The notes below the pieces were generated by a model. That model was not told the DNA's origin, ran no database searches, and saw only the letters and a program-made list of their open reading frames with translations. DNA of 64,000 nt from IMG/VR virus record IMGVR_UViG_3300014208_000023, positions 320,001 through 384,000 of that record. One strand, 5' to 3'. The DNA comes from a virus. Taxonomy: Duplodnaviria > Caudoviricetes. A program made the position numbers and the translations under genes. This document shows positions 34,171-52,077 of this stretch, piece by piece. How positions within the stretch are numbered: position 1 is the stretch's first letter; each line of letters opens with the position of its first letter.

Positions 34171-35727
34171 TTACGCGCCTTTACAAGCTATTAAAAGCTC
34201 TTTCTTAAGATCAGTGATTAGTGTCTCGTGAAATCTCTTTGAGGCGGCCGGGAATGCTTTCATCCACGAACCGGATTGTAGATTTTTCCAAGACTTTTCC
34301 TTGATCTCTTCTAGATTATTAACTAGATTTTTCAAAATCCAGATATCACAATCTTTGTTTGTTTCAAAAGGCTGATCCGTATTTCCTATTGCTTTGAAAA
34401 TCTCAAGCAAGAAAAACGAGGTAGGCTTATTTGTGGTTGAGTGTGGTCTATCACAATGAGCGAAGAAGTTCAAGGTGTTTTGAAAGGCATACTGCCCTTT
34501 CTTGAGGTCGTTAAAGGCTGGAGCTATCTCCGGCTTTTTACCTTCACTCAACTCTTTGAGATTTTTAGTGTATGCCGCTCTTTTATCAGATATAACCTTC
34601 TCTAGTTTTGAGAGGAAAAATCCTCTACGCTCAAGAAGCTTTTTGTTTTCTTTGCTAAATAGAATCGGATTCCTTCTTTTTTCGATATGCAGAGGGCTAT
34701 CCATGTAGGAAAACTCTCCCTCTCTCAAAAAGGATCTTGAAACTTCATCCAATAGATAATAGTCTCTCGTAACCATGTTTTTCTCTTCGGCAAAACTGGC
34801 AGAATAAACTACCAATCCGCTACGATCGTTCAGCGTTTTGCGAATTGCGGACATGATATCTGCATTATATGCAGGATACATGGTGTCCATATAAAGCGCC
34901 GGGGTGCCTGTGGCCCTATTAACTACCAGTCTAACCATCGACCGGAATATCATTTGCTTTCCGTATGGATGAAAGTCCTGTGTTCCAGATACGAACACAA
35001 CGCCTACATATTTAGAGGAGATAGAGCCGATTAGCCCTCTAGATTGAGCCGCCGTCCATGCCTGACAAGAAATGATTCCTCTCATTGAAGCAGTGGCAAT
35101 GTCCCAAGCGCCCTCTTCGCCAGATGAAGAGAAAGTTAGCTTGTATGCTTTGTTTGGAATATTTAGCTTACTAAACTCTTTGTAATAGTAATCGTTCTCA
35201 TAATTAACTTTAAGTGAGTTGTCTGGCTTAATTTCTGCTAGAACTAAATTAATCTTATTGAGAACTTTAAGAAAAGCCTCTCCCTTTTTAAAGACTGGAG
35301 ATGACGATGCCCCGCTGAAAATATCAGTAGGGATCGACATAACAACCTTATTCTCAACAACGGAGCATAATTCTTTACCTGACAAAGAATAGGTCAGCAT
35401 CGATATGATGTTGATTGCTGACTGAATGGCATTACATTTTTCGTTTCTTTCTTTGCCCGAGTCCAGCATTTCTTTCGCTAGCAAAGTTTTTAACGAAAAC
35501 ACCATCTCATTAAGAATGGAGAGCATTAAGTATACTAGCTGTCTAGCTATGCTTTTGGCTGACTCGGCCGAATATACCGTAATGTCTTCGGTGAAATTAG
35601 GTAGCCCTATGTGTGGGAATACTTTGTCTATTCTCGATAGGTTTTTGAAAACCCTATGTTCTTTGATCCAAGCCGGGAATGGCTTGGTGCTGTTGATAAT
35701 ATAGTTTATTCCTGGCATTTTAATCAC
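34171..35727 (-). CDS. SMRG-xxSC family protein (tandem copy 4 of 4)
   Basis: GAWDIATASMRGIISCQAW...LIGS...MIFRSMVR...MDTMY. Confidence 0.85.
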   Translation of the reverse strand: MIKMPGINYIINSTKPFPAWIKEHRVFKNLSRIDKVFPHIGLPNFTEDITVYSAESAKSIARQLVYLMLSILNEMVFSLKTLLAKEMLDSGKERNEKCNAIQSAINIISMLTYSLSGKELCSVVENKVVMSIPTDIFSGASSSPVFKKGEAFLKVLNKINLVLAEIKPDNSLKVNYENDYYYKEFSKLNIPNKAYKLTFSSSGEEGAWDIATASMRGIISCQAWTAAQSRGLIGSISSKYVGVVFVSGTQDFHPYGKQMIFRSMVRLVVNRATGTPALYMDTMYPAYNADIMSAIRKTLNDRSGLVVYSASFAEEKNMVTRDYYLLDEVSRSFLREGEFSYMDSPLHIEKRRNPILFSKENKKLLERRGFFLSKLEKVISDKRAAYTKNLKELSEGKKPEIAPAFNDLKKGQYAFQNTLNFFAHCDRPHSTTNKPTSFFLLEIFKAIGNTDQPFETNKDCDIWILKNLVNNLEEIKEKSWKNLQSGSWMKAFPAASKRFHETLITDLKKELLIACKGA

Positions 35728-37301
35728 CGATTAAGAATCGAGTAAGAGAGCTCTTTTTTGACGAACTCAACTATCATATCCGATAGGCTCTTGGAGAACG
35801 TGTCGATGCTGTAGTCTCTTGAGCAATGAAGCTTAAGTGCGGCATCGACGCGCGCCTTGCTGTAGAAGATCATATTTTTGCGCTGCAAGAAGCAGGCTTT
35901 TAGGTATTCCTTATTGTAAGAACGAACGCCATAGTGCTCGGTAGTTTTGGGAGCATTAAATCCTGCGAAGATTGCGGCAACTAGAGCGTCCGCAACTACA
36001 CTGAATGGCGCGGAAAGAGTGAAGTTATTCACCATCTTCTTTAGGTCCGAATCCGGCGGAGTAGCAGTATTGTTATACTGAATATCTTCAAACTTGGAAG
36101 AAAGAAAAAGAGAGAAATTGCTCTGAACTCTCTGGGCGTATTTTTCAAGCTCGGTCTGATTGTGAGTCAGTAGGTGCGCATCAAGCTCACACTTGGTGCG
36201 TAGCGCGGTATCCTGATACGATTTTTCACGAGCAGTGATCTTTGTCGTGATCTTTTCATTCGGGATATAGATGTGCCTAGTCTTATTCTGAAGACGAGGG
36301 CCGTAATAAACTGGAAGCTTGCTCTTTTCCGCAAGCGTATCCATGAACGTCTTTACGATCTCATCGTCCTCTGCTGGATACATTTTATCCATAACAAGAC
36401 AAGGAGTATTGGCGTCCTTATCGAAGGCATATCGAACAATGCTTCTACGCATCATCTTCGTGCCTAGACTTCCATGATTCTCAACCGGATCAGCGGCCAC
36501 ACCTGAAGTGAGGTAGATGATTCCAACGAACTTGGAAACAACCGAACCAATAAGACACTTAGGATACTCACCTTCCCAACGCTGGCATGATCGCGTGCCG
36601 CGCATTGACATGGTGATAAGGTCCCAGGCGCCTTCTTCTCCGTCAGAAGAAAAGACGATCTGATATTTCTTATTGGGAATATTTTCCTTGCTAAAAATCT
36701 TGTAGGATTCAATAGCGTCTAGGGCTATGATGGTGTTTTCTGGAACGCCATGCTCAATGCACTTATCTCGAAGCTGCTTATAGAGCCTAAAGATCGGAAT
36801 GCCGGCCTTGTATAGCACCTTGCCGTCTCCACCAATGATATTAGCGTGTAGTCGAAGATCGATCTTTCCGCCGTTTGAGCTTACAACACCATTAGTTGGG
36901 TGGAATGCCGAGGCCGCTCTTGGATCGCAAGTTTCAGCTAGAAATGAAAGCGACTGAACGATCTGCGCAACTTCATTTAGCTTCGCCTTCTTGGCGAGTC
37001 TCTCTTCTAGAGGAGCTAGGAACTGTGTCTTTTGAGACGAAAGGCCAATCTGCTCTTTAGCCCTATTACATTCAGAGCTAACGTCATGCAGAAGGTTCCA
37101 AACGTAACTGCCTTCTTTTTTTACATCAACCATGCATTTTGCAATGTTGGTTTCCTGCTTAAAGTTAGGCATTCCTATCGAGGAGAAAACTTTCGTTATT
37201 CTCGTAGGGGCGGTAAAAAGAGGATGCGCCTTAAGGAATGGCGGCAGAACTTTCCCTTTGAAGATATCCGTCGTGTTGAATACTGTTTTCTTGTCAACCA
37301 T
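35724..37301 (-). CDS. SMRG-xxSC family protein (tandem copy 3 of 4)
   Basis: GAWDLITMSMRGTRSCQRW...LIGS...MMRRSIVR...MDKMY. Confidence 0.85.
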   Translation of the reverse strand: MVDKKTVFNTTDIFKGKVLPPFLKAHPLFTAPTRITKVFSSIGMPNFKQETNIAKCMVDVKKEGSYVWNLLHDVSSECNRAKEQIGLSSQKTQFLAPLEERLAKKAKLNEVAQIVQSLSFLAETCDPRAASAFHPTNGVVSSNGGKIDLRLHANIIGGDGKVLYKAGIPIFRLYKQLRDKCIEHGVPENTIIALDAIESYKIFSKENIPNKKYQIVFSSDGEEGAWDLITMSMRGTRSCQRWEGEYPKCLIGSVVSKFVGIIYLTSGVAADPVENHGSLGTKMMRRSIVRYAFDKDANTPCLVMDKMYPAEDDEIVKTFMDTLAEKSKLPVYYGPRLQNKTRHIYIPNEKITTKITAREKSYQDTALRTKCELDAHLLTHNQTELEKYAQRVQSNFSLFLSSKFEDIQYNNTATPPDSDLKKMVNNFTLSAPFSVVADALVAAIFAGFNAPKTTEHYGVRSYNKEYLKACFLQRKNMIFYSKARVDAALKLHCSRDYSIDTFSKSLSDMIVEFVKKELSYSILNR

Positions 37302-37333
37302 TATCGTTCTCCCAAACTCTCTATGTATGTAAG

Positions 37334-38845
37334 TTAATCACTCGTGCGGGCATTGTCAAGGCGCCTAGCGGCGAAAAGTGCCTTGAGCTCTGCCTTGAGG
37401 GCGGCGTCCGCCCGCTTCATAACCTGTTCCATAATAAGGACAAAATCTCTCTTTGTAAGAGAGGATGTCTTTCTTAAGGCCAGCGCCCCATTCCACTGCG
37501 TTACCTGGCTAGAAATTGATTCTAATAGATAGTTCCTTTTGTGAAAGTAGTTTAGATACAATTTTATTGAGGCTGATAATTTATCAAAATCTCTCTCTTG
37601 AGAAATATCAATATTGCTTATAAGCAAATTACTGAATGTTCTAATTGAATTTTTGATCTGATCTTTGAAAATGAAATTCTTATTCTTGAGGGCAATAAGA
37701 GCATTGATTTTGTCTGAGGAAAATCTACTTAATTCAATTCCGGAAGTAGATGATTCCCTAATCAGAGTAGTAATGAATCTAGCCTTAATTAAAGAGATTT
37801 CTCTTTTTATAGAATCATCATCTAGTTTGGAAGGCTTATCTTTAATCGGATTATTTTGATAAGAGCAAATAGATTCTTCCTCTGGAAGAGGAGTCTGAAA
37901 TATCTCTTTTTCAGAATAGAAATTGAAAGAGTCTTTGATTTTACTTCTTGGTAGAAAATATCGCCCATTAATAATATCCTGTTCTTCATCAGAAGCCAGA
38001 ATCACTTTAAGTCCTGATTTTTCAGTCAGAAACTTTGCGAATAGATCAAAAATTTCAGGAAAGAACTCCGGATAAATATGATCTAGAATAAGAACTGGTT
38101 GTTTTTTTCTTATTGTTTTAGAATTATCTACCGCAAATCGCACTGTTGATCTATAAAGCATCTTTGAGCCATATTCAGTTGGCTTGCCTTTGCTTTCCAG
38201 AAACACTATACCAACATAGGGATCTAGCATAGATCCGATCAGGGATCGCCTATACTCTCCGTTCCAACTTTGGCACGTAGTAATTCCTCGCATGGACATT
38301 GTTGCGATGTCCCAAGGGTCCGTAGAAAAAGAAATTTGGGACGATGATAGAGGGATATTAAGTCGGCTAAAATCCTTGAAAGAATCAAAGGCGAAAAAAT
38401 TAGATACCCCTATCTTTTGCTCGATTGTTTTCTCTAGAAGAGAAAAAAGCGAAGATCCTTTTCTGAAAACTAGATTTCCTGAAGAGTCAGGAATATCTTC
38501 AGATAGGATCGCTGAAATTTTATTGTCTCTTTTTATTTCGATATAATCGGAATAAGAAAATCTATTAAAAAATTCAATTAGAGCCTCAATAACCGAGTTT
38601 GATTCGGTCATTGCTGTCAATTTTCCCTTCAAAAGGACTGATATAATTTCGCTTTCAAAACAAACATCCTTAATAAAACACTCAAGATATTGTTCGCCAA
38701 GTAATGTTATTAGTGGTGCAGAGGAATTATTAAGACCTTTCTTGGGAAAAATCTTATCATAAATAGAAACATCCTTGAAAATAGGGTGTTCAATTATCCA
38801 TTCCGGATACTTCTTATTTTCAAGGATGTTTGAAACGTTATACAT
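37334..38845 (-). CDS. SMRG-xxSC family protein (tandem copy 2 of 4)
   Basis: DPWDIATMSMRGITTCQSW...LIGS...MLYRSTVR...LDHIY. Confidence 0.85.
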   Translation of the reverse strand: MYNVSNILENKKYPEWIIEHPIFKDVSIYDKIFPKKGLNNSSAPLITLLGEQYLECFIKDVCFESEIISVLLKGKLTAMTESNSVIEALIEFFNRFSYSDYIEIKRDNKISAILSEDIPDSSGNLVFRKGSSLFSLLEKTIEQKIGVSNFFAFDSFKDFSRLNIPLSSSQISFSTDPWDIATMSMRGITTCQSWNGEYRRSLIGSMLDPYVGIVFLESKGKPTEYGSKMLYRSTVRFAVDNSKTIRKKQPVLILDHIYPEFFPEIFDLFAKFLTEKSGLKVILASDEEQDIINGRYFLPRSKIKDSFNFYSEKEIFQTPLPEEESICSYQNNPIKDKPSKLDDDSIKREISLIKARFITTLIRESSTSGIELSRFSSDKINALIALKNKNFIFKDQIKNSIRTFSNLLISNIDISQERDFDKLSASIKLYLNYFHKRNYLLESISSQVTQWNGALALRKTSSLTKRDFVLIMEQVMKRADAALKAELKALFAARRLDNARTSD

Positions 38846-40428
38846 TAGGATACTTTTTGTATTAGCTCAATAACGCTATCGTCTGGAAGAGGAAGTGATT
38901 TGCTGCCCTTGATTTTCTCGACCTTACCAACTAGCTTGGCCCGGTCCTTTTCAATTTCTTTTATAAAGGCTTCTTTTATCTTCTGCTTTAGAAGGCCCTT
39001 ATAGGTTGAGGATATTCCTTTTTTTGATCGTTTAGCATAAAGGTCTGTTACTTTTTGAGCAAAAAGCTCTGGAACATTTTCAGCAAAAACACTATCAAAA
39101 ACTTGAAGTGCTACTACTGGAACCTTAACATTCGTATCTTTTACATTACTAACGGCTTCTTCTATTGCTTGTCGTAGCACAAAAGTTGTTTCAGCAACTA
39201 CCGAATATATCGGAGAATCTATGCCTTTATTTGCCGCCCAAGTTGTTCTATCCACCGCATCAGATAGCTCTGATTTCTTAATCTTTCCTGACGCTATTCT
39301 AGCCTTGGCAGAATAGTGCGCTGGGATAAATGAAAGCGTATTTCTTACGCTTTCAAGATAAGAAGCTCTGTTGCTAATTAGTTGCTTGAATTGAATATCA
39401 CTATCTCTGTATGGATGAGCGTTATGCTCCAGCTTTGCCATAATAGGAGTTAATGGAATGTAAGCTTTTGATACGCCATTTCTAAAAATGAGCGAGCAGT
39501 TGGCAATTGGTAACTTGCCACCAGTTTTTTCTTTTAGAATGTTTAGAAACTGTTGTTCAACATCTTTGTTGTGAGCCGGATACATCCTCTCTAGGACTAG
39601 GCTGGGCTTATTGCCCTCATCAATAAGAAAGCGCACAATGCAGCGTCTCATCATCTTTGATCCTTTGCCCTCAAAATCAGAGCCGGTAGTGAGATACATA
39701 ATGGCGGTGAATGGATCTACAATCGATCCAACCAAATGAGTTGAATTTCCCTGTCCCCACGTTTGGCAGGACGAGATTCCTCTCATGCTCATAGTTGCTA
39801 TGTCCCAAGCGCCTTCAATTCCAGAGGATGAGAATACTATTTTTGATTCGCTTCCGGGAATATTTACGGCGTTATATTTTTTGAAAGCTGGAGCCTGATC
39901 TAGAGATCCAAGTGGTAGAAAATGAGCCTCTCTCAATAGCTCGTTTATTTTCTGATAGACCTTAAAAAGTCCTTCTCCACGCTTAAAAACCAGCTTCTTT
40001 TCGTCATCCATTATATCGGCTGACAAGTTAAGCGTTATCTTGTTTGTTTTTTCATTAAGAACAATGAATGACTTATATGACTTTGAAAGAAGCGCCTTGA
40101 ACTGTTTCAAAACATAAGAGCACTTCTTATACTTAACTTTTCTAGCAGGACCAAAAGCTTTAGAGTCGGCTGTCGGTGCCGTCTTAATCTCCGCATAACG
40201 AGTAAGCGAGCTTATTCGGGCATTTACTTCCGTAGAAATAAAGGTAATAACTTCTTCAGCGGCAGAGAGAAGCTCGGAAGAGTTATCTATATTGACTTTT
40301 TGCGTAAAGTTTTCAAGGCCGATTGCTGGGAATACCTTCTTAATTTCTAGGCCTGATGAAAAAATATGATGACTAGTAATAAACGCTGGAAATCTTTTAT
40401 CTGCTTTAATGTCGGCTACTTTAGTCAT
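38845..40428 (-). CDS. SMRG-xxSC family protein (tandem copy 1 of 4)
   Basis: GAWDIATMSMRGISSCQTW...LVGS...MMRRCIVR...LERMY. Confidence 0.85.
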   Translation of the reverse strand: MTKVADIKADKRFPAFITSHHIFSSGLEIKKVFPAIGLENFTQKVNIDNSSELLSAAEEVITFISTEVNARISSLTRYAEIKTAPTADSKAFGPARKVKYKKCSYVLKQFKALLSKSYKSFIVLNEKTNKITLNLSADIMDDEKKLVFKRGEGLFKVYQKINELLREAHFLPLGSLDQAPAFKKYNAVNIPGSESKIVFSSSGIEGAWDIATMSMRGISSCQTWGQGNSTHLVGSIVDPFTAIMYLTTGSDFEGKGSKMMRRCIVRFLIDEGNKPSLVLERMYPAHNKDVEQQFLNILKEKTGGKLPIANCSLIFRNGVSKAYIPLTPIMAKLEHNAHPYRDSDIQFKQLISNRASYLESVRNTLSFIPAHYSAKARIASGKIKKSELSDAVDRTTWAANKGIDSPIYSVVAETTFVLRQAIEEAVSNVKDTNVKVPVVALQVFDSVFAENVPELFAQKVTDLYAKRSKKGISSTYKGLLKQKIKEAFIKEIEKDRAKLVGKVEKIKGSKSLPLPDDSVIELIQKVS

Positions 40429-43849: not shown

Positions 43850-44098
43850 GGTCGCTTCTTTGCAAGAGACCGATACCAATAGATCGTAATCAATCTACTT
43901 TTCCCGAATGGTTGCTATATAGTAACTAGCAGTATTAGGTCGCTCTTTTTGAGTTAGACCCAAACGCTTGTGATTAACCGAGGAGTTTTGCACATGAACA
44001 ATTAGGGACACGTATAAGGTATTAGTTTATACTAGCCTTCCGGCATGCCATAGTGCTGTCTAGTCACTCAAACCTAAACGTAGACACTTCGGCACTAC
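43850..44098 (-). ncRNA. candidate multi-hairpin structured RNA downstream of gltX
   Basis: No ORF; stems at 44050-44098, 43938-43960, 43879-43898 and 43850-43871, with G-U pairs mostly favouring the minus strand. Confidence 0.35.
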
Positions 44099-45546
44099 TT
44101 GTCAAGACCAGTAAGGCGGGACGCGCCTATTTCCAGCCTTTTGATTGACGAGCGGCGGCCGAGGGTCGCCATCACCTGGAATAATTCGGGTGAATGAGAC
44201 CTGCCGGTCAGTGATAGCCGCATGAATCCACCCAGCTCCTTTAGTGATAGGTCGTTTTCGACCAACCAGTTTTTGGTCAATTGCCGAAGATGATCCTCTC
44301 CCCAAGCCGGGTCTGAATCAAGAGCGGTAATTAGTGTGGATACTTTTTCGCGAACCTTCATAGAAACATCCTTGAAATCAGGATTCTCTATCGTGTCAAT
44401 TACGAACGGCATCATTTCGTCTGCCGCCTCAACTAGAGTATGTGCCCTAGCTCTCACCAAAGGCATTGCTGCTCGTAGCTTGGCCGAAGTAAAAGCGTCT
44501 TCTACCAACCCCTTTTTCTTTAGGAAAGGGAGAAGCATTTTCTCATACTCGTCAGTTGATGTAAGAGCCTCACTTTTAAGATGCTCATACTGCACTGAAG
44601 TGAATTTCTTCATGTCGAATTTGCCATCGTTCTTGCCGCAATCTTCAATTGCGAAAAGATCAATCATCTGGTCAAGAGAAAATATCTCTTGATCTTTATG
44701 AGACCATCCAAATCGAACAAGGTAATTAAGAATTGCGTGTGGAGTAAATCCCATCTCTCTAAACTCTGCGACCGACACTGAGCCATCTCGCTTTGAGAGT
44801 TTTCCACCGGCCGCGTTCAGAAGCATTGGGAGGTGACAATATATCGGACGCTCTAGTTTTAGAGCATCAGCAATCATTACCTGTTGCGGAGTATTTTTAA
44901 GATGATCTGACCCGCGGATAACGTGAGTAATATTGTCGATGACAAGATCATCAATGCAATTGGCAAAATTGAATAGCGGGATTTCGCTGTGCCGGAGGAT
45001 AACAAAATCATAGTTCTCCTTATTTGGAACGCTTCTTTTACCAAAAGCAACGTCCTCGTAATCGGTGGTTCCTTCGGTTGGAGCCTTGAATCGGATTACG
45101 AATGGCTTATCTAGGCGCTCTTTAATATCCCTACATGTACCGGGATATTTGAATGGATGCTTTGGATTCTTTGCCATGGCCTCGTCTCTGGCCTTGGTAA
45201 GCTCCTCCTCGGTGCAATAACACCTATAAGCGTCTCCCTGCTCAAGTAGCTGCTCTGCATACTTTTTGTATGTAGGAAGCCGCTCCATTTGCGTATATGC
45301 CCCTGCTGGACAATTATCAGTTCCCCATCCCATTGTAGGAGTGAGTCCAAGCCAGTTTAGCTCTGATAGAATCTTTTCAGCACCCTGATCCACTACTCTT
45401 GCGGTATCAGTATCCTCAATACGAAGGACGAAATCAGCGTCATACTTACGAGAGAATAGGTAGTTGAAAAGAAACGTCTTGGCATTTCCTACGTGAAGGG
45501 TGCCAGAGGGTGATGGGGCGCAACGCACTCGGAATTTTTTCGACAT
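44095..45546 (-). CDS. gltX: glutamyl-tRNA synthetase
   Basis: RCAPSPSGTLHVGN (HIGH), LRIEDTD, YRCYC...YPGTC zinc motif, IRGSDHL, KLSKR (KMSKS), full anticodon-binding domain. Confidence 0.95.
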   Translation of the reverse strand: MSKKFRVRCAPSPSGTLHVGNAKTFLFNYLFSRKYDADFVLRIEDTDTARVVDQGAEKILSELNWLGLTPTMGWGTDNCPAGAYTQMERLPTYKKYAEQLLEQGDAYRCYCTEEELTKARDEAMAKNPKHPFKYPGTCRDIKERLDKPFVIRFKAPTEGTTDYEDVAFGKRSVPNKENYDFVILRHSEIPLFNFANCIDDLVIDNITHVIRGSDHLKNTPQQVMIADALKLERPIYCHLPMLLNAAGGKLSKRDGSVSVAEFREMGFTPHAILNYLVRFGWSHKDQEIFSLDQMIDLFAIEDCGKNDGKFDMKKFTSVQYEHLKSEALTSTDEYEKMLLPFLKKKGLVEDAFTSAKLRAAMPLVRARAHTLVEAADEMMPFVIDTIENPDFKDVSMKVREKVSTLITALDSDPAWGEDHLRQLTKNWLVENDLSLKELGGFMRLSLTGRSHSPELFQVMATLGRRSSIKRLEIGASRLTGLDK

Positions 45547-47937: not shown

Positions 47938-49599
47938 TTATCCTATGAATTTATGAAACTTATTTTTCTTACAGAAAGCCTTCCATTCCGAAGGAGAGCA
48001 ATTTGCTTCCTCAAGAAGACTCAACCAATCTGGCTGCTTGAAAATTTCCTTATCCAAGGAGTTTGCTAGCGCCAAAAGCTCAGTCAGTTTTGCTTTCTTT
48101 TTGGCCTTTGATTTAAAGCAGGTTAAAGATGGATCCATCTTCATTTCTGTTTTAATTTCTTCGATTCTATCCTTGCGAGTCTTTTCAAGCTCGACGGCAA
48201 TTAATTCATTCACCTCTTTGGTGGTGAGGTTCGGATTTTCTTCCTTAATCTTAATGATTGCGTTTGCTTTGGCTAGCTGATATCTGGTGCTTTTATTTCT
48301 CTCACGGTAATCTGCGAGCGTTTTTTGCAGATTTCTAATTGGAGTTTGCTCCTGATATGCCATTCTTCTGCCCTGCTCAACTCCCATTAAGAATAGTAGG
48401 CGCATGACAACATCGAACAAAGAACGATCGTATTTTTCCTTCTCACGCTTAAGGAACTTTTCAGTAAAATGCTCTTTAGCTGGAGGAAAAATCTTCTTCT
48501 CCTGCTTGCCAAGCTCATATCCGTTATAATCGAATTTCCATTCGTTAGCGTTTCGGATAAGACGATAACCCTTTTCTAGAATGTTCTTGAAAGGAGCAAA
48601 GACATCATTGTATAATGCAAGCTCGTCTGGCTCATCAGACCACTGCTTTACTTTATTTTTATCTTCGACTTTCTCTTCAAGTTTCTCATCAACATGACGC
48701 TCGGCCGCATTGACAATAACAATTGGAGACGGCGCAACGCTAGACGCTTCTTGCGTAACTGGCCGCATTGGCGTATTGTTTTCTACATATTCCATAGGTT
48801 TTGCTTCATTACTCTTACTGCGAACGGAATGTTCTACCTTTGATAGCGCCGCGTCGTTAAGATAATAATATTCTTCGCCATTTGGTAGGACCACCGCCGG
48901 CCCATCTAGCCTATGGCGTTTATTATTAACGAACCATTCTTTTGTTCCGTCAAGCCAAACTCTTGCTGGACCAACAGGATTATGAATCATATCGTTGATG
49001 CGGTGAAGGTGCAGTAGCTCCTTACCCATTCTTGGGGGACTAGCCTTTAGCGCCTTGGCTCTAGCTCTCCAAAGAACTTCTGGTTCCGTAGAAGGTTTGC
49101 CCATCCAATGCCACGCCACTATGGCTTTACCATTAATTGGAGATTTTCTCTCAATAGCGGGCCCATCTTCTCGATGTAGATTGCCCATGTAATACCATTT
49201 TGTAGTGCCGTTTATTAACGTTACTGCCGGAGCGCCTTCGCGATGAAGTTTTCCCTCGAAATACCATAGGGTATCTCCGCAGGATCTAATCACTGCTGGA
49301 CCATCTGCTCTATGATTCAAGTTATTGACGTAATATTCTTTGGTGCCGCTAGCGTATTCTACGGCAGGAAGAGAATTGTCTCTATGACGTTTGCCGTGGC
49401 GCCACCATTCAGTGGAACCATCAGCATGAATGATTGCTGGTCCGGTATCAAAATGAGTTAGTTTATCGGCATCAACGTGTCTAACGGCCGGCTTAAGGCC
49501 CGGAATGTCATATACCGAATCGCTTGGCGTTGAGCTTCTTACGTCTTCGACCATTCCTAGACGATCTACGAAAGCGGATAGTGACATTCCCTTGTTCAT
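47938..49599 (-). CDS. HREDGPA-repeat protein with C-terminal coiled coil
   Basis: About 7 repeats of H-R-x-D-G-P-A-V-x(4-5)-G-x-x-x-W/Y. Confidence 0.8.
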   Translation of the reverse strand: MNKGMSLSAFVDRLGMVEDVRSSTPSDSVYDIPGLKPAVRHVDADKLTHFDTGPAIIHADGSTEWWRHGKRHRDNSLPAVEYASGTKEYYVNNLNHRADGPAVIRSCGDTLWYFEGKLHREGAPAVTLINGTTKWYYMGNLHREDGPAIERKSPINGKAIVAWHWMGKPSTEPEVLWRARAKALKASPPRMGKELLHLHRINDMIHNPVGPARVWLDGTKEWFVNNKRHRLDGPAVVLPNGEEYYYLNDAALSKVEHSVRSKSNEAKPMEYVENNTPMRPVTQEASSVAPSPIVIVNAAERHVDEKLEEKVEDKNKVKQWSDEPDELALYNDVFAPFKNILEKGYRLIRNANEWKFDYNGYELGKQEKKIFPPAKEHFTEKFLKREKEKYDRSLFDVVMRLLFLMGVEQGRRMAYQEQTPIRNLQKTLADYRERNKSTRYQLAKANAIIKIKEENPNLTTKEVNELIAVELEKTRKDRIEEIKTEMKMDPSLTCFKSKAKKKAKLTELLALANSLDKEIFKQPDWLSLLEEANCSPSEWKAFCKKNKFHKFIG

Positions 49600-49880: not shown

Positions 49881-49954
49881 TGGTGACCGACCCAGGGCAC
49901 GAATCTGGATTACCTTACCGAAGTAAAGCGTTCTAATCATTAAACTAGTCGGCC
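49881..49954 (-). ncRNA. non-canonical tRNA-Glu-like RNA, copy G (encoded CCA)
   Basis: GGCCGAC UA GUUU AAUGAUUA GAAC G CUUUA CUUCGG UAAGG UAAU CCAGA UUCGUGC CCUGG GUCGGUC A CCA. Confidence 0.85.
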
Positions 49955-49958
49955 GCAG

Positions 49959-50029
49959 TGACCCTCCCAGGGAACGAGCCTGGATTACCTTACCGAAATA
50001 AAGTGTTCTATTCATTAAACTAGAGGGCC
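49959..50029 (-). ncRNA. non-canonical tRNA-Glu-like RNA, copy F (no encoded CCA)
   Basis: GGCCCUC...CUUUA UUUCGG UAAGG UAAU CCAGG CUCGUUC CCUGG GAGGGUC A. Confidence 0.85.
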
Positions 50030-50084
50030 GTAAAGCATACTTGGAACACTAGGTATGCGAGCTAATAAAATCTAAATTGTTCCT

Positions 50085-50158
50085 TGGTGACCTGTCCAGG
50101 GATCGAGTCTGGATTACCTTACCGAAGTAAAGCGTTCTGAACATTAAACTAACAGGCC
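50085..50158 (-). ncRNA. non-canonical tRNA-Glu-like RNA, copy E (encoded CCA)
   Basis: GGCCUGU...CUUUA CUUCGG UAAGG UAAU CCAGA CUCGAUC CCUGG ACAGGUC A CCA. Confidence 0.85.
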
Positions 50159-50167
50159 GTAACTGAA

Positions 50168-50407
50168 TTATGAATCTTTACCCCACGCCCAAATAGCCCT
50201 AACATACATTACCATTATGAAAATGGACATAACAACCAATGCCATAGAGTGGGTCATTAGTCCCCACGCTACCCACATTGATTCTGCAATCAATGCGATA
50301 TAGAAACCAACCTTCTTTTTATCTCCAATTAAAGAGAGTGCGATAAGTAGAAGTATGCAGCCGCCCCAAGAAAGAATGTTTGGAACGGTGAAAATTGAAT
50401 TAAACAT
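50168..50407 (-). CDS. small PnuC-like membrane protein
   Basis: Three hydrophobic helices, K-x-x-G-F/W and AIWAW ending typical of phage PnuC-like half proteins. Confidence 0.55.
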   Translation of the reverse strand: MFNSIFTVPNILSWGGCILLLIALSLIGDKKKVGFYIALIAESMWVAWGLMTHSMALVVMSIFIMVMYVRAIWAWGKDS

Positions 50408-50430
50408 ATTTGCCTTTAACTAATTGTTAG

Positions 50431-50503
50431 TTGGGGATATAGGACTCGAACCTATAACTCGCGGATTCAAAGCCCGCTACTCTGCCAGTTGAGTTAATCC
50501 CCA
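50431..50503 (-). tRNA. tRNA-Gln(UUG)
   Basis: Canonical cloverleaf UGGGGAU/AUCCCCA, D-loop GG, loop CU-UUG-AA, GUUCGA T-loop; CCA not encoded. Confidence 0.9.
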
Positions 50504-50596
50504 ATAAGAGGAAATGCATCACTTAGTGATTGAGGATTTGATCCCTTAACAATTCCAATGCTACATTTTTATAGGTTTATATAGCGAACCATTTGT

Positions 50597-50815
50597 GTGC
50601 AAATCGGTTTTGGAGGCCGATCTGCACTTTTTACTGGTTTTGCAGGCCAACCAGCCAACCTAGATCGGGCTCCACTACTTTATCGCTCTGGTCCTTTTTG
50701 GTAGAGTTTAGGTGCTTCATTGCCCTCTTTGTTTGTATTCCGAACCAGAGAAGCAGGCCTCCAAAAACGGACATCTGCCTTACGCTTTGAGTCCGCCCGT
50801 TGGAGCGTAAAAACA
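50597..50815 (-). ncRNA. candidate ~220-nt multibranch structured RNA
   Basis: Long-range helix 50756-50769/50605-50618, stems 50742-50750/50686-50694 and 50662-50668/50617-50623, and 5' hairpin UUACGCU/AGCGUAA. Confidence 0.5.
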
Positions 50816-50818
50816 TAG

Positions 50819-50889
50819 TGACCTGTCCAGGGAACGAGCCTGGATTTCCTTACCGAAATAAAGCGTTCTGATCATTAAACTAACAGGCC
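50819..50889 (-). ncRNA. non-canonical tRNA-Glu-like RNA, copy D (no encoded CCA)
   Basis: GGCCUGU...CUUUA UUUCGG UAAGG AAAU CCAGG CUCGUUC CCUGG ACAGGUC A. Confidence 0.85.
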
Positions 50890-50896
50890 TAAATTG

Positions 50897-51082
50897 TTAT
50901 CCGATAACCACGTACTCTTTGCCATTAGCAATTTCTTCACAAGTCCCGCCCTTGGTGTAAGGGTTTCCCATTGGTGTCACTCCGGTGCATATGGATGCGT
51001 CTTCGGAATCTGCCGAATACGTGATGACTAGTGCGTCTTGGTTACACTTCAAGAGCTTTGCAACAATTTCTGATACTTTCAT
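50897..51082 (-). CDS. small hypothetical protein
   Basis: MKVSEIVAKLL...; lies between RNA copies C and D. Confidence 0.6.
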   Translation of the reverse strand: MKVSEIVAKLLKCNQDALVITYSADSEDASICTGVTPMGNPYTKGGTCEEIANGKEYVVIG

Positions 51083-51115
51083 TTTTTTTCTTTTCTTTCA
51101 TTTTAGTAGCGTTAG

Positions 51116-51186
51116 TGATCCTCCCAGGGAATGAGCCTGGATTACCTTACCGAAATAAAGTGTTCTATTCATTAAACTAGAGGACC
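51116..51186 (-). ncRNA. non-canonical tRNA-Glu-like RNA, copy C (no encoded CCA)
   Basis: GGUCCUC...CUUUA UUUCGG UAAGG UAAU CCAGG CUCAUUC CCUGG GAGGAUC A. Confidence 0.85.
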
Positions 51187-51491
51187 TAAAGATTTATTTC
51201 CTCAATGATGGTGAGGTTGTTATTTTCTTTTTTATAGAGAAGAAGGCTGTTAGCATTGATTTTTTCATTAAGAAAAAGAAGCTTAATTTTCTCACATGTA
51301 AGCTTGAATTTCAAAATTAAGAAATATTCATTTGCAAGAATGTTAATGTTATTTTCTTGCAACAGTCTTTCTAAGTCAAGATTATTGTTTTGGCGAGTGT
51401 CAGTTGTTAGGGAAGATTTGTAACGACTTATAAAGTCGCGCGCGGCTTCTAACGTGTATTCTCCAGTGAAAAATGGTCTATATAAAATCAT
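51186..51491 (-). CDS. AT-rich hypothetical protein
   Basis: 101-aa ORF exactly filling the gap between RNA copies B and C. Confidence 0.55.
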   Translation of the reverse strand: MILYRPFFTGEYTLEAARDFISRYKSSLTTDTRQNNNLDLERLLQENNINILANEYFLILKFKLTCEKIKLLFLNEKINANSLLLYKKENNNLTIIEEINL

Positions 51492-51499
51492 GTTTTTAG

Positions 51500-51569
51500 T
51501 GACCCGTCCAGGGATCGAATCTGGATTACCTTACCGAAGTAAAGTGTTCTGGCATTAAACTAACGGGCC
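51500..51569 (-). ncRNA. non-canonical tRNA-Glu-like RNA, copy B (no encoded CCA)
   Basis: GGCCCGU UA GUUU AAUGCCA GAAC A CUUUA CUUCGG UAAGG UAAU CCAGA UUCGAUC CCUGG ACGGGUC A. Confidence 0.85.
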
Positions 51570-51573
51570 GTAA

Positions 51574-51894
51574 TTATATCTTAAATTCTTTTACTATTTC
51601 AACTTCTAGGCCACCAAAAGGAATGCGTTTGGTACGGACGATATATATCGTATCTCCCGTAATCGATTGTGCGCGGGCCAGTCTATCTAAAGCGTCACAC
51701 TTTGCCGTAGCTCTAACTATGAAGCCATAGCCAAGTGCTCCTATAGATTTAGTTGAATTAATGATTTCAGTCATAGAGGTCGCGTTGGATAACGCTGGCG
51801 CTATATTAAAATAGCCCCTATTCTTCCTTATCCAAGATTCGGCGGCTTCTAGCGTTTTTAGTGACGATAAACTATAACTGGCATATATAAACAT
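51574..51894 (-). CDS. hypothetical protein
   Basis: 106-aa ORF whose ATG directly follows the CCA of RNA copy A. Confidence 0.6.
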   Translation of the reverse strand: MFIYASYSLSSLKTLEAAESWIRKNRGYFNIAPALSNATSMTEIINSTKSIGALGYGFIVRATAKCDALDRLARAQSITGDTIYIVRTKRIPFGGLEVEIVKEFKI

Positions 51895-51967
51895 TGGTGA
51901 CCTGTCTAGGGATCGAATCTAGATTTCCCTACCGAAGTAGAGCGTTTTGGCATTAAACTAACAGGCC
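51895..51967 (-). ncRNA. non-canonical tRNA-Glu-like RNA, copy A (encoded CCA)
   Basis: GGCCUGU UA GUUU AAUGCCA AAAC G CUCUA CUUCGG UAGGG AAAU CUAGA UUCGAUC CCUAG ACAGGUC A CCA; compensatory changes in the AC and T stems. Confidence 0.85.
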
Positions 51968-51972
51968 AATAG

Positions 51973-52070
51973 CGGCGAGGATGAGGAATCGAACCTTATC
52001 TACAATGTAGAGCGAACTGCTTTTTGCTTCATATCTTCATTGATCCTGGCTCCATACGAAGCTTCTCGCC
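51973..52070 (-). ncRNA. 98-nt tRNA-like element with no recognisable anticodon arm
   Basis: GGCGAG/CUCGCC acceptor, GCUUC-GUAU-GGAGC hairpin, GGUUCGAUUCC T-arm, discriminator G. Confidence 0.5.
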
Positions 52071-52077
52071 AAAGTCA

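What the first reader, a model, noticed from the sequence alone, without database searches (positions are those of the whole stretch)
49881..51967. Seven tRNA-Glu-derived RNAs with a collapsed anticodon loop: candidate non-ribosomal or decoy tRNA system
SEEN: Seven 70-74 nt minus-strand copies fold as cloverleaves. Acceptor stems covary: GGCCGAC/GUCGGUC, GGCCCUC/GAGGGUC, GGCCUGU/ACAGGUC, GGUCCUC/GAGGAUC, GGCCCGU/ACGGGUC. Copy A also has compensatory changes in the anticodon stem (CUUUA/UAAGG to CUCUA/UAGGG) and T stem (CCAG/CUGG to CUAG/CUAG), so structure is under selection. That covariation fixes a 6-nt loop YUUCGG, one nucleotide short and able to close as a UUCG tetraloop. All copies lack the D-loop GG, none has intact G53-U54-U55-C56-R57-A58, and all carry A51-U63; three encode CCA and four do not. 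KNOWN (recalled, verify): the GGCCCGU/ACGGGUC-A acceptor, U11-A24 and a 4-nt UAAC-type variable loop are features of bacterial tRNA-Glu, and UUC remains in the loop. Staphylococcal non-proteinogenic tRNA-Gly also loses GG/TPsiC and uses A51-U63 to avoid EF-Tu. INFERENCE: these are maintained RNAs kept off the ribosome. They could be Glu carriers for an aminoacyl-tRNA-dependent modification, or nuclease-resistant decoys against tRNA-targeting anti-phage effectors or the stringent response.
Basis: partly seen in the sequence, partly recalled or inferred. Interest (0 to 1): 0.95.

Follow-up and report, generated by a model that had tools for sequence, protein, structure and literature searches.

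The report
Anticodon-less tRNA-Arg mimics in jumbo phage
A 428-kb phage keeps eight copies of a tRNA-shaped RNA that descends from an arginine tRNA (not a glutamate tRNA, as first proposed) and has its anticodon loop sealed into a four-base cap, so it cannot read codons and is most likely a tRNA decoy or an RNA-processing signal.

Summary
Seven minus-strand copies lie in the window and an eighth lies 15 kb away. All fold as cloverleaves with a 6-nt Y-Y-U-C-G-G loop, which is a UUCG/CUCG tetraloop closed by a C-G, U.G or U-A pair.

I found 18 more copies in seven related contigs from huge phages (neighbour protein 43-69% identical). Across 26 sequences, 97.4% of cells pair and 16 of 22 pairs show double-sided changes. 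Orthologous copies are 81-89% identical, against 57-77% for flanking genes.

The tRNA-Glu ancestry is not supported. The acceptor/D-arm signature occurs only in bacterial tRNA-Arg genes (62 of 62 called). The covariance model hits tRNA-Arg, never tRNA-Glu. The loop equals the tRNA-Arg(UCG) loop (CUUCGGA/UUUCGGC) minus nucleotide 38. G19 is always lost, and the main arginine identity base A20 is mostly lost.

No ArgRS or known Glu-tRNA-using enzyme family is encoded, so the link to the nearby GluRS is only synteny. No RNA data exist.

Best reading: non-decoding tRNA-Arg mimics acting in trans as decoys, target unknown. Main rival: RNase P/Z punctuation of small-gene transcripts.

I found no description of this family in the papers searched. 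Earlier notes of this scan report similar anticodon-less mimics in other phages.

The parts
51895..51967 (-). tRNA-like copy A. Acceptor GGCCUGU/ACAGGUC, loop CUUCGG, 3' tail A-CCA. The ATG of a 106-aa ORF follows directly.
   Evidence: R1 covariance model 92.7 bits; Rfam tRNA 41.6 bits; ARAGORN tRNA-?(Glu|Arg)(tc)
51497..51569 (-). tRNA-like copy B. Acceptor GGCCCGU/ACGGGUC, loop CUUCGG, tail A-CUA. A promoter-like TTGAAA-18-TATAAT ends 4 nt upstream.
   Evidence: R1 97.2 bits; ARAGORN; promoter scan. This copy plus the 106-aa ORF is missing as one unit in a wastewater relative.
51113..51186 (-). tRNA-like copy C. Acceptor GGUCCUC/GAGGAUC, loop UUUCGG, D loop AAUGAAUA (keeps A20, lacks G19). 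Its G1 is the last base of the upstream ORF's TAG stop.
   Evidence: R1 97.5 bits; sequence and ORF list
50816..50889 (-). tRNA-like copy D. Acceptor GGCCUGU, loop UUUCGG, tail A-CUA. A conserved ~310-nt non-coding stretch follows, then tRNA-Gln.
   Evidence: R1 101.4 bits; Rfam tRNA 41.3 bits
50085..50158 (-). tRNA-like copy E. Acceptor GGCCUGU, loop CUUCGG, tail A-CCA. Nearly identical to the out-of-window copy H.
   Evidence: R1 100.7 bits; Rfam tRNA 39.4 bits
49956..50029 (-). tRNA-like copy F. Acceptor GGCCCUC/GAGGGUC, loop UUUCGG, tail A-CUG. First member of a tandem pair that is kept in related phages.
   Evidence: R1 98.6 bits; tandem pairs in L003, L006 and L129
49881..49954 (-). tRNA-like copy G. 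Acceptor GGCCGAC/GUCGGUC, loop CUUCGG, tail A-CCA. Orthologues with the same acceptor stem occur in L003 and L006.
   Evidence: R1 97.6 bits; Rfam tRNA 36.7 bits; 86.5-89.2% identical to its orthologues

Best explanation
The elements are a conserved family of non-decoding tRNA mimics that descend from a tRNA-Arg(UCG) gene. Loss of nucleotide 38 turned the anticodon loop Y-U-U-C-G-G-N into a closed Y(UCG) tetraloop hairpin. The D loop lost G19 in every copy and A20, the main ArgRS determinant, in most. The T loop lost T54-A58. The tRNA core (U8, D stem, A14, A15, A21, A45-A46-U48), the top of the acceptor stem (G1-C72, G2.U71), R73 and a C-Y-A tail stayed fixed. Shown: ancestry, fold, selection for the fold, copy number and spread across a clade of 250-430 kb phages. 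Inferred: they are transcribed with the surrounding minus-strand genes, are cut out like the neighbouring true tRNAs and end in CCA. Also inferred: they are not charged and do not enter the ribosome, but accumulate as stable L-shaped RNAs that act in trans as decoys for a factor that recognises tRNA-Arg. The most likely target is a host tRNA-targeting defence enzyme. An anticodon-loop nuclease of the colicin D type, which cuts tRNA-Arg at 38/39, is an attractive but untested candidate.
For: Ancestry: a scan of 185,579 species genomes with acceptor positions 1-4 plus the D arm returned 118 stretches. Of the 80 loci fetched, all 62 called tRNAs were tRNA-Arg and none was Glu. The natural UCG isoacceptor loops are UUUCGGC and CUUCGGA, which are the element's loops plus nucleotide 38. 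A whole-genome scan of five Bacteroidota genomes with model R1 gave mostly tRNA-Arg as significant hits, with one tRNA-Gln and one weaker tRNA-Leu; the best hit in four of five genomes was tRNA-Arg (Arg(UCG), 54.4 bits, in one), and tRNA-Glu was never hit. Fold and selection: across 26 sequences from 8 phage contigs, 97.4% of cells pair, 16 of 22 pairs have double-sided changes and 0 of 500 shuffles reach the observed values. The loop-closing pair is C-G, U.G or U-A. The G.U pairs make the fold specific to the strand that carries the genes. Orthologues are 81-89% identical against 57-77% for flanking genes, and more conserved than the canonical tRNA-Gln. Non-decoding: the loop is 6 nt and its closing pairs covary. 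G19 is absent in 26 of 26 copies and the D-loop letters after G18 vary freely. A20 and C35 are the main bacterial arginine determinants (PMC9976931). Trans-acting dosage: there are 8 copies, including tandem pairs with no ORF between them, and these pairs are kept in three other phages. The fixed core and loop letters go beyond what a cleavage signal needs. Context: colicin D cleaves tRNA-Arg at 38/39 (PMC4307249). Unchecked first-stage notes report RtcB and CCA-type enzymes in this genome.
Against: There are no RNA data at all, so expression, processing, CCA addition and abundance are unshown. No target is identified. No colicin D nuclease or immunity domain is in the phage, and the host is unknown. 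Closing the loop might also abolish recognition by an anticodon nuclease, which would make a poor decoy. The tight placement between stop and start codons fits a cis-processing role equally well. All members come from one phage clade, so conservation is not independent across lineages.
Confidence: 0.4

Rival explanations
1. Cis-acting punctuation. The tRNA shapes serve only as RNase P and RNase Z/E cleavage signals that cut a polycistronic transcript into separate, nearly leaderless mRNAs for the small ORFs, as tRNAs do in mitochondrial transcripts. The excised RNA itself has no function.
For: The elements lie on the gene strand, 0-9 nt after the upstream stop and often 0-6 nt before the next ATG: copies A, B and H, plus L003:7977, L003:9169 and L006:7979. 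The C-Y-A tail could pair with the GG of the RNase P RNA L15 loop (established knowledge, not tested here). The ORF content between elements varies between phages, and one element-plus-ORF unit is absent in a relative. Shine-Dalgarno use in the phage is weak.
Against: RNase P and RNase Z need only the acceptor/T minihelix, yet the D stem, the core letters and the U-C-G of the cap are invariant in 26 of 26 copies while the T loop/elbow is relaxed. The bacterial RNase P specificity domain contacts that elbow (recalled knowledge). Conserved tandem pairs have no ORF between them. Copy D is followed by non-coding RNA. Cleavage at G1 of copy C would remove the last base of the upstream stop codon. 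True tRNAs in the same region could do this job.
Confidence: 0.25
2. These are glutamate (or other amino-acid) carriers charged by the phage GluRS and kept off the ribosome, feeding an aminoacyl-tRNA-dependent modification.
For: A full-length GluRS (Pfam tRNA-synt_1c plus Anticodon_2) lies 4.3 kb downstream, and this synteny is kept in L003, L006, L008, L010 and L145. CCA or CUA tails are conserved. U11-A24, U13.G22, A46 and a 4-nt variable loop resemble the GluRS 'augmented D helix' determinants (recalled knowledge).
Against: The body is tRNA-Arg type and those D-helix features are ancestral to that class. R1 does not hit any tRNA-Glu, including the phage's own. UUC is replaced by CUC in five relatives. 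G2.U71 stands where E. coli tRNA-Glu has the U2-A71 determinant (recalled). LanB_N, FemAB, GatB_N, GlutR_N and Leu_Phe_trans are absent from the complete genome. The phage has a canonical tRNA-Glu(UUC) for its GluRS. The synteny comes from a single clade.
Confidence: 0.05
3. Working but unusual tRNA-Arg(UCG) decoders with a six-membered loop, reading CGA/CGG or promoting frameshifting.
For: U-C-G is invariant, is preceded by Y and is followed by G in 25 of 26 copies. R73 is kept. Rfam tRNA scores exceed the gathering score for several copies.
Against: The loop is 6 nt in all 26 copies, and the 31-39 and 32-37 pairs both covary, which argues for a closed tetraloop. One copy has U-A as the closing pair, so G37 is not fixed. 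G19 is always lost, while A20 and T54-A58 are lost in most copies. The phage has no ArgRS. CGA makes up only 4.0 per 1000 codons, too few to need eight genes.
Confidence: 0.05
4. Selfish or structural DNA repeats. These are decaying tRNA pseudogene copies that persist because they promote recombination and shuffling of small-gene cassettes.
For: A wastewater relative lacks exactly one element-plus-ORF unit, with the joint at equivalent positions of copies A and B. Gene content between elements differs among phages.
Against: Compensatory changes keep all four helices, including strand-specific G.U pairs. Individual orthologues keep their own acceptor stems across phages and are more conserved than the coding neighbours. 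Pseudogenes would not hold 97% pairing.
Confidence: 0.07

Closest known systems
Bacterial tRNA-Arg(UCG) of the type common in Bacteroidota (for example the genes in loci L046 and L064)
   Same: Acceptor positions 1-4 (GGCC), with the G2.U71 pair in part of the class. U8-A9, D stem GUUU/GAAC, D-loop start AAUG and A21. A 4-nt variable loop and A/G73, with A51-U63 common. Loop letters Y-U-U-C-G-G.
   Different: Nucleotide 38 is missing, so the loop closes as a tetraloop. G19 is always lost and A20 mostly lost. G53, T54 and A58 are not conserved. There are eight copies, in phage genomes.
Murine gammaherpesvirus 68 vtRNAs/TMERs
   Same: Eight clustered virus-encoded tRNA-like RNAs that are not aminoacylated. 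A single vtRNA has a trans function in vivo, and the tRNA part also directs processing of what lies downstream (PMC4337559).
   Different: Those are eukaryotic Pol III genes followed by miRNA hairpins, with no tetraloop-collapsed anticodon loop and no sequence relation. Here the elements lie among bacterial-type ORFs and expression is unproven.
Non-proteogenic tRNA-Gly of Staphylococcus aureus
   Same: tRNA variants kept out of translation. Their weak EF-Tu T-stem pairs include A51-U63 (PMC7826273).
   Different: Those keep a 7-nt anticodon loop, are charged by GlyRS and feed Fem transferases. Here there is no anticodon loop and no FemAB, and A51-U63 is simply the commonest state in the parental tRNA-Arg class.
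tRNA-Other, the pseudo-tRNA of Bacillus cereus
   Same: A tRNA-derived RNA that does not function in translation but has a cellular role (PMC3399842, abstract seen).
   Different: It is a single chromosomal gene, is reported to be aminoacylated (recalled), and has a different ancestry and loop.
tRNA punctuation of mitochondrial transcripts, and mascRNA-type tRNA-like processing elements
   Same: tRNA shapes abut coding regions and could define mRNA ends, giving near-leaderless mRNAs (established knowledge; the layout is seen).
   Different: Punctuating tRNAs are mostly functional tRNAs, and mascRNA-like elements do not conserve the D-arm sequence. Processing is untested here.
Engineered 'tRNA scaffold' RNAs, in which the anticodon arm is replaced by a closed helix
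   Same: The same design idea: a tRNA body with the anticodon loop replaced, giving a stable, nuclease-resistant, correctly processed RNA (recalled knowledge; also named in an earlier scan note).
   Different: Those are artificial. This would be a natural counterpart.

Membership tests
Canonical tRNA (Rfam RF00005) | Cloverleaf with four helices, scoring above the family gathering score | tested here: met
   Four window copies score 36.7-41.6 bits against a gathering score of 29. Copy H scores 39.4 bits. The other copies were not listed at the thresholds used.
Canonical tRNA (Rfam RF00005) | 7-nt anticodon loop with U33 and purine 37 presenting three unpaired anticodon bases | tested here: not met
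   The loop is 6 nt in 26 of 26 copies. The 32-37 pair is C-G, U.G or U-A, leaving a YUCG tetraloop.
Canonical tRNA (Rfam RF00005) | Elbow formed by G18-G19 with Psi55-C56, and the T54-A58 pair | tested here: not met
   There is a single G in the D loop of all 26 copies. Position 54 is C in 19 and position 58 is U in 18.
tRNA-Glu | UUC anticodon in a normal loop, and overall similarity to tRNA-Glu genes | tested here: not met
   R1 gives no hit to the phage tRNA-Glu or to tRNA-Glu genes in five Bacteroidota genomes. Five relatives have CUCG.
tRNA-Glu | Augmented D helix: U11-A24, U13.G22, A46 and a missing residue 47 | tested here: inconclusive
   These features are present in the elements, but the 4-nt variable loop is also present in 60 of 64 tRNA-Arg genes of the same class, so they do not discriminate.
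tRNA-Arg (bacterial) | Acceptor/D-arm sequence class | tested here: met
   All 62 tRNAs carrying the signature are tRNA-Arg. R1 scores them at 40-66 bits.
tRNA-Arg (bacterial) | A20, the main ArgRS determinant (PMC9976931) | tested here: not met
   The canonical D loop AAUGGAUA is found in 62 of 64 tRNA-Arg genes. In the elements the letters after G18 vary, and A20 can be aligned only in copies C and F.
tRNA-Arg (bacterial) | C35 and G/U36 presented in an open loop; A/G73 | tested here: inconclusive
   The letters C and G are invariant and R73 is kept in 26 of 26 copies, but C and G sit inside a closed tetraloop. Charging is not testable here.
UNCG/YNMG tetraloop hairpin | Four-base loop Y-N-M-G on a Watson-Crick or wobble closing pair | tested here: met
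   UUCG occurs in 21 copies and CUCG in 5. The closing pair is C-G in 16, U.G in 9 and U-A in 1. The YNMG consensus itself is recalled knowledge.
Aminoacyl-tRNA-dependent non-ribosomal systems (LanB, Fem, L/F-transferase, GatCAB, HemA) | A partner enzyme of a known family encoded with the tRNA | tested here: not met
   PF04738, PF02388, PF03588, PF02934 and PF05201 gave no match in the complete 428-kb genome, and the control genomes behaved as expected.
Anti-defence tRNA decoy (proposed kind, no defined family) | Binds and neutralises a tRNA-targeting host factor | not testable with these tools
   There is no host, no RNA data and no binding assay. Only indirect sequence arguments exist.

The most novel reading that the evidence does not exclude
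Huge phages encode multi-copy, uncleavable tRNA-Arg decoys. A one-nucleotide deletion at position 38, the site where colicin D-type nucleases cut, converts the anticodon loop into a hyperstable tetraloop. The RNA keeps the tRNA-Arg body that the host nuclease or another tRNA-Arg-directed immune effector recognises, so it soaks up the effector. This would be an RNA-only counter-defence against tRNA-targeting immunity.
Probability: 0.25. Interest if true: 0.9.

Novelty: new variant of a known kind. Interest (0 to 1): 0.72.

Why it matters
Phage tRNAs are usually explained by codon supply or by replacement of tRNAs destroyed by host defence. Here a tRNA gene has been turned into something that cannot decode, yet it is kept in up to eight copies under stronger constraint than the genes around it, across a clade of 250-430 kb phages.

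That points to a tRNA-shaped RNA with a job outside translation. It could act as a decoy for tRNA-directed immunity or as a processing device, and either role can be tested directly with small-RNA sequencing and binding assays.

The family also shows a simple evolutionary route: one deletion in a tRNA-Arg(UCG) loop produces a c(UUCG)g cap. Annotation pipelines discard such genes as 'tRNA-???', so they may be systematically overlooked.

Tried and rejected
1. INPHARED phages. blastn with the whole array and with one copy gave no real match. tblastn with the GluRS gave only matches of at most 37% identity.

2. IMG/VR. Pattern scans and protein-anchored scans with the 553-aa neighbour and with GluRS found nothing. 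The window's own record is left out of these scans.

3. My first metagenome pattern was mis-specified, with one N too many before AAT. Its zero result is therefore meaningless. The corrected pattern found two more contigs.

4. The genome search on the relatives' records failed because they are not held. Only +/-10 kb around the anchor gene could be examined in relatives.

5. RNA evidence. No RNA run holds the stretch, so expression is untested.

6. Partner-enzyme searches in the complete genome. There was no LanB_N, FemAB, GatB_N, GlutR_N, Leu_Phe_trans, ArgRS core, bacterial Pth, colicin D nuclease or colicin D immunity domain. A PTH2 hydrolase exists but lies about 360 kb away in record coordinates. 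This does not reproduce the PTH2 adjacency that earlier scan notes report for other phages.

7. Pfam and PHROGs on the small ORFs between the copies gave nothing informative. The two ORFs that follow copies A and B are not detectably paralogous.

8. Literature searches for six-membered anticodon loops, phage tRNA mimics or decoys, and tRNA-like RNAs of huge phages found no description of this family.

9. Shine-Dalgarno use and the taxa carrying similar tRNA-Arg genes hint at a Bacteroidota host, but this is weak and is not claimed.
Full report
WHAT IS THERE. The window is bases 320001-384000 of a complete 428,320-bp virus record with direct terminal repeats. On the minus strand between 49881 and 51967 lie seven 73-74 nt repeats. 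An HMM scan of the whole genome finds an eighth copy at 386817-386892, about 180 nt from tRNA-Gly(UCC). ARAGORN calls two of them 'tRNA-?(Glu|Arg)' with a two-base anticodon, that is, a six-membered loop. The Rfam tRNA model scores four window copies at 36.7-41.6 bits against a gathering score of 29. Single-sequence MFE folds give the cloverleaf in most copies, with the anticodon arm as a 6-7 bp helix capped by four bases.

IS THE FOLD SELECTED? On the eight copies in this genome, 97.2% of cells pair and six pairs show double-sided changes, and no shuffle out of 500 reaches these values. For independent sequences I searched with the 553-aa neighbour protein and found orthologues at 43-69% identity on huge contigs of 249-431 kb from JGI, NCBI and Logan. 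All keep the order ClpB-like, HARE-HTH protein, small-RNA region, 553-aa protein, GluRS. A covariance model (R1) finds 5, 4, 3, 2 and 1 copies within the stretches of five relatives that I could fetch. A corrected pattern scan of metagenome contigs added two more contigs.

The final set is 26 distinct sequences. In it, 97.4% of cells pair, 16 of 22 pairs have changes on both sides, and there are 87 double-changed cells against 18 expected. No shuffle reaches any of the five measures, and register-shifted controls collapse to 33-58% pairing. Invariant G.U pairs (G2.U71 in all copies, U13.G22 in 25 of 26) make the fold specific to the RNA of the gene strand.

Orthologous copies keep their own acceptor stems. 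For example, GGCCGAC/GUCGGUC is found in three phages. These orthologues are 81-89% identical, while the flanking genes are 57-77% identical at the DNA level. The elements are also more conserved than the neighbouring true tRNA-Gln. The elements are therefore under strong purifying selection as RNAs.

WHAT THE LOOP IS. In all 26 copies the loop has six letters, Y-Y-U-C-G-G, with one copy ending in A. The pair below the loop (31-39) covaries as A-U, U-A, C-G and G.U. The outer loop letters also pair, as C-G in 16 copies, U.G in 9 and U-A in 1. What remains is UUCG in 21 copies or CUCG in 5, a tetraloop of the UNCG/YNMG type (the consensus is recalled knowledge). No anticodon can be presented.

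ANCESTRY: ARGININE, NOT GLUTAMATE. I scanned one genome per prokaryotic species for acceptor positions 1-4 plus the element's D arm. This gave 118 stretches. In the 80 loci returned, ARAGORN tRNAs and all are tRNA-Arg: CCU 24, CCG 21, UCU 9 and UCG 8. Most are from Bacteroidota, with some from Patescibacteria, Thiothrix and Bdellovibrio-like bacteria.

That scan was anchored on the element's own letters. As an unanchored test I ran R1 over five whole Bacteroidota genomes. The significant hits are tRNA-Arg genes at 41-54 bits, one tRNA-Gln at 48.5 bits and one weaker tRNA-Leu. In one genome the best hit is tRNA-Arg(UCG). tRNA-Glu is never hit, although one lies in a fetched locus. The phage's own canonical tRNA-Glu(UUC) gives no R1 hit even at E = 10.

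Within the parental tRNA-Arg class:
- the variable loop is 4 nt in 60 of 64 genes
- A51-U63 is the commonest T-stem state (25 of 64)
- G2.U71 occurs in 13 genes
- the discriminator is A in 53 and G in 8
- the D loop is AAUGGAUA in 62
- the UCG isoacceptors have loops UUUCGGC or CUUCGGA

The element's loops, UUUCGG and CUUCGG, are exactly these loops minus nucleotide 38.

What changed relative to the parent is informative. Nucleotide 38 is gone. G19 is gone in all 26 copies. A20, the strongest bacterial arginine determinant (PMC9976931), can be aligned only in copies C and F. G53, T54 and A58 are relaxed.

What stayed fixed is G1-C72, G2.U71, U8, the D stem, A14, A15, G18, A21, A45-A46-U48, U55, C56, C60, R73 and C74, with Y75-A76 nearly fixed.

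CONTEXT. The array is part of a small-RNA island with a true tRNA-Gln(UUG), a conserved ~100-nt long tRNA-like element and a conserved ~310-nt non-coding stretch. Short ORFs of unknown function sit between the copies. Spacing is very tight. The upstream stop lies 0-9 nt before G1, and in copy C the stop codon's last base is G1 itself. Several downstream ATGs start 0-6 nt after position 76. A wastewater relative about 95% identical lacks exactly one element-plus-ORF unit and carries 73 other letters in place of the tRNA-Gln gene.

The complete genome has a full-length GluRS 4.3 kb away. It has no ArgRS, and no LanB, Fem, L/F-transferase, GatB or HemA domains. A PTH2 hydrolase is present but distant. 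No colicin D nuclease or immunity domain is found. CGA is a minor codon at 4.0 per 1000. No public RNA run holds the region.

HOW IT PROBABLY WORKS. Shown: this is a tRNA-Arg(UCG)-derived, structure-selected, multi-copy RNA gene family whose anticodon loop is closed. Inferred: it is not decoded, because it has no anticodon loop and no elbow pair. It is probably not arginylated, because A20 is lost and C35/G36 are locked in the cap.

I favour a trans-acting mimic or decoy (confidence 0.4) for three reasons:
- the whole L-shaped core and the cap letters are fixed, far beyond what a cleavage signal needs
- tandem pairs without intervening ORFs are conserved
- the copy number fits a dosage role

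The missing nucleotide sits where colicin D cuts tRNA-Arg (38/39; PMC4307249). This makes a tRNA-Arg-directed nuclease an attractive target, but it is only a lead.

The main rival (0.25) is punctuation by RNase P and RNase Z, giving near-leaderless mRNAs. The spacing supports it and the C-Y-A tail fits it, but the invariant D arm and cap, the relaxed elbow and the tandem pairs argue against it. The two roles are not exclusive.

The glutamate-carrier model (0.05), an odd decoder (0.05) and selfish repeats (0.07) are disfavoured for the reasons given under rival explanations.

COMPARISON AND NOVELTY. The closest sequence relative is bacterial tRNA-Arg(UCG). The element fails the membership tests for a working tRNA: the 7-nt loop, G18-G19/T54-A58 and A20.

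The closest functional analogues are:
- the eight non-aminoacylated vtRNAs of murine gammaherpesvirus 68 (PMC4337559)
- the pseudo-tRNA tRNA-Other of Bacillus cereus (PMC3399842)
- the non-proteogenic tRNA-Gly of S. aureus (PMC7826273)
- tRNA punctuation of mitochondrial transcripts
- engineered tRNA scaffolds

I found no description of this family or of natural tetraloop-capped tRNA bodies in phages in the papers I could search. That search does not cover subscription journals.

Earlier unchecked notes of this scan report similar anticodon-less, UUCG-capped tRNA mimics in other phages, some next to PTH2. I could not test whether those are homologous. I rate the finding a new variant of a known kind (non-decoding tRNA-derived RNAs), with interest 0.72.

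Noticed in passing
window 50504-50815 (-): A ~310-nt stretch between copy D and tRNA-Gln is conserved in L003, L006 and L008 (mean column identity 74%). Its indels are not multiples of three, and 19 of 64 predicted pairs are kept through double changes. It has no Rfam match. It is a candidate structured RNA.
   Followed up: partly
window 51968-52077 (-): A ~100-nt element directly 5' of copy A is conserved in L003, L006, L008 and L010. It has a GGCGAG/CUCGCC acceptor-like stem, a D-arm-like AGCU...AGCU and a good T arm (GGUUCGAUUCC). ARAGORN calls the L006 orthologue a 94-nt tRNA-Phe(GAA). It is either a long or interrupted tRNA or a second kind of tRNA mimic.
   Followed up: partly
window 50035-50058 (-): A hairpin GCAUAC-loop-GUAUGC lies just upstream of copy F. 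Similar hairpins precede elements in L003 (before 8426), L006 (before 8507) and L010 (before 1951).
   Followed up: no
window 51494-51893 and 50422-50499: Contigs of a wastewater relative (~95% identical) skip 398 bases, exactly copy B plus the 106-aa ORF. They also carry 73 different letters in place of the tRNA-Gln gene. This shows cassette-like gain or loss and tRNA gene swapping within the array.
   Followed up: partly
window 51186-51188 (-): The TAG stop of the 101-aa ORF ends on G1 of copy C. RNase P cleavage at G1 would therefore leave that mRNA without a complete stop codon.
   Followed up: no
window 51573-51602 (-): A near-consensus sigma-70-like promoter (TTGAAA, 18 nt, TATAAT; 11 of 12 matches) ends 4 nt before G1 of copy B. 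No equivalent was seen before the other copies.
   Followed up: no
genome 10115-10513 (-), outside the window: A PTH2-type peptidyl-tRNA hydrolase (90 bits) is encoded near the left-end tRNA genes. Earlier scan notes link PTH2 to anticodon-less tRNA mimics in other phages, but here the two are not adjacent.
   Followed up: partly
window 47938-49599 (-) and 34171-40428 (-): The 553-aa neighbour has repeats of a WY..G..HR.DGPA type, and its relatives carry PF20530. It has hundreds of metagenomic homologues. Four tandem 503-527-aa paralogues further downstream have no Pfam match.
   Followed up: no
window 44095-45546 (-): A full-length phage GluRS (catalytic plus anticodon-binding domains) is kept in synteny in all relatives examined. 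The phage also has a canonical tRNA-Glu(UUC) at genome 28189-28264 that shares the G2.U71/A73 acceptor top.
   Followed up: partly
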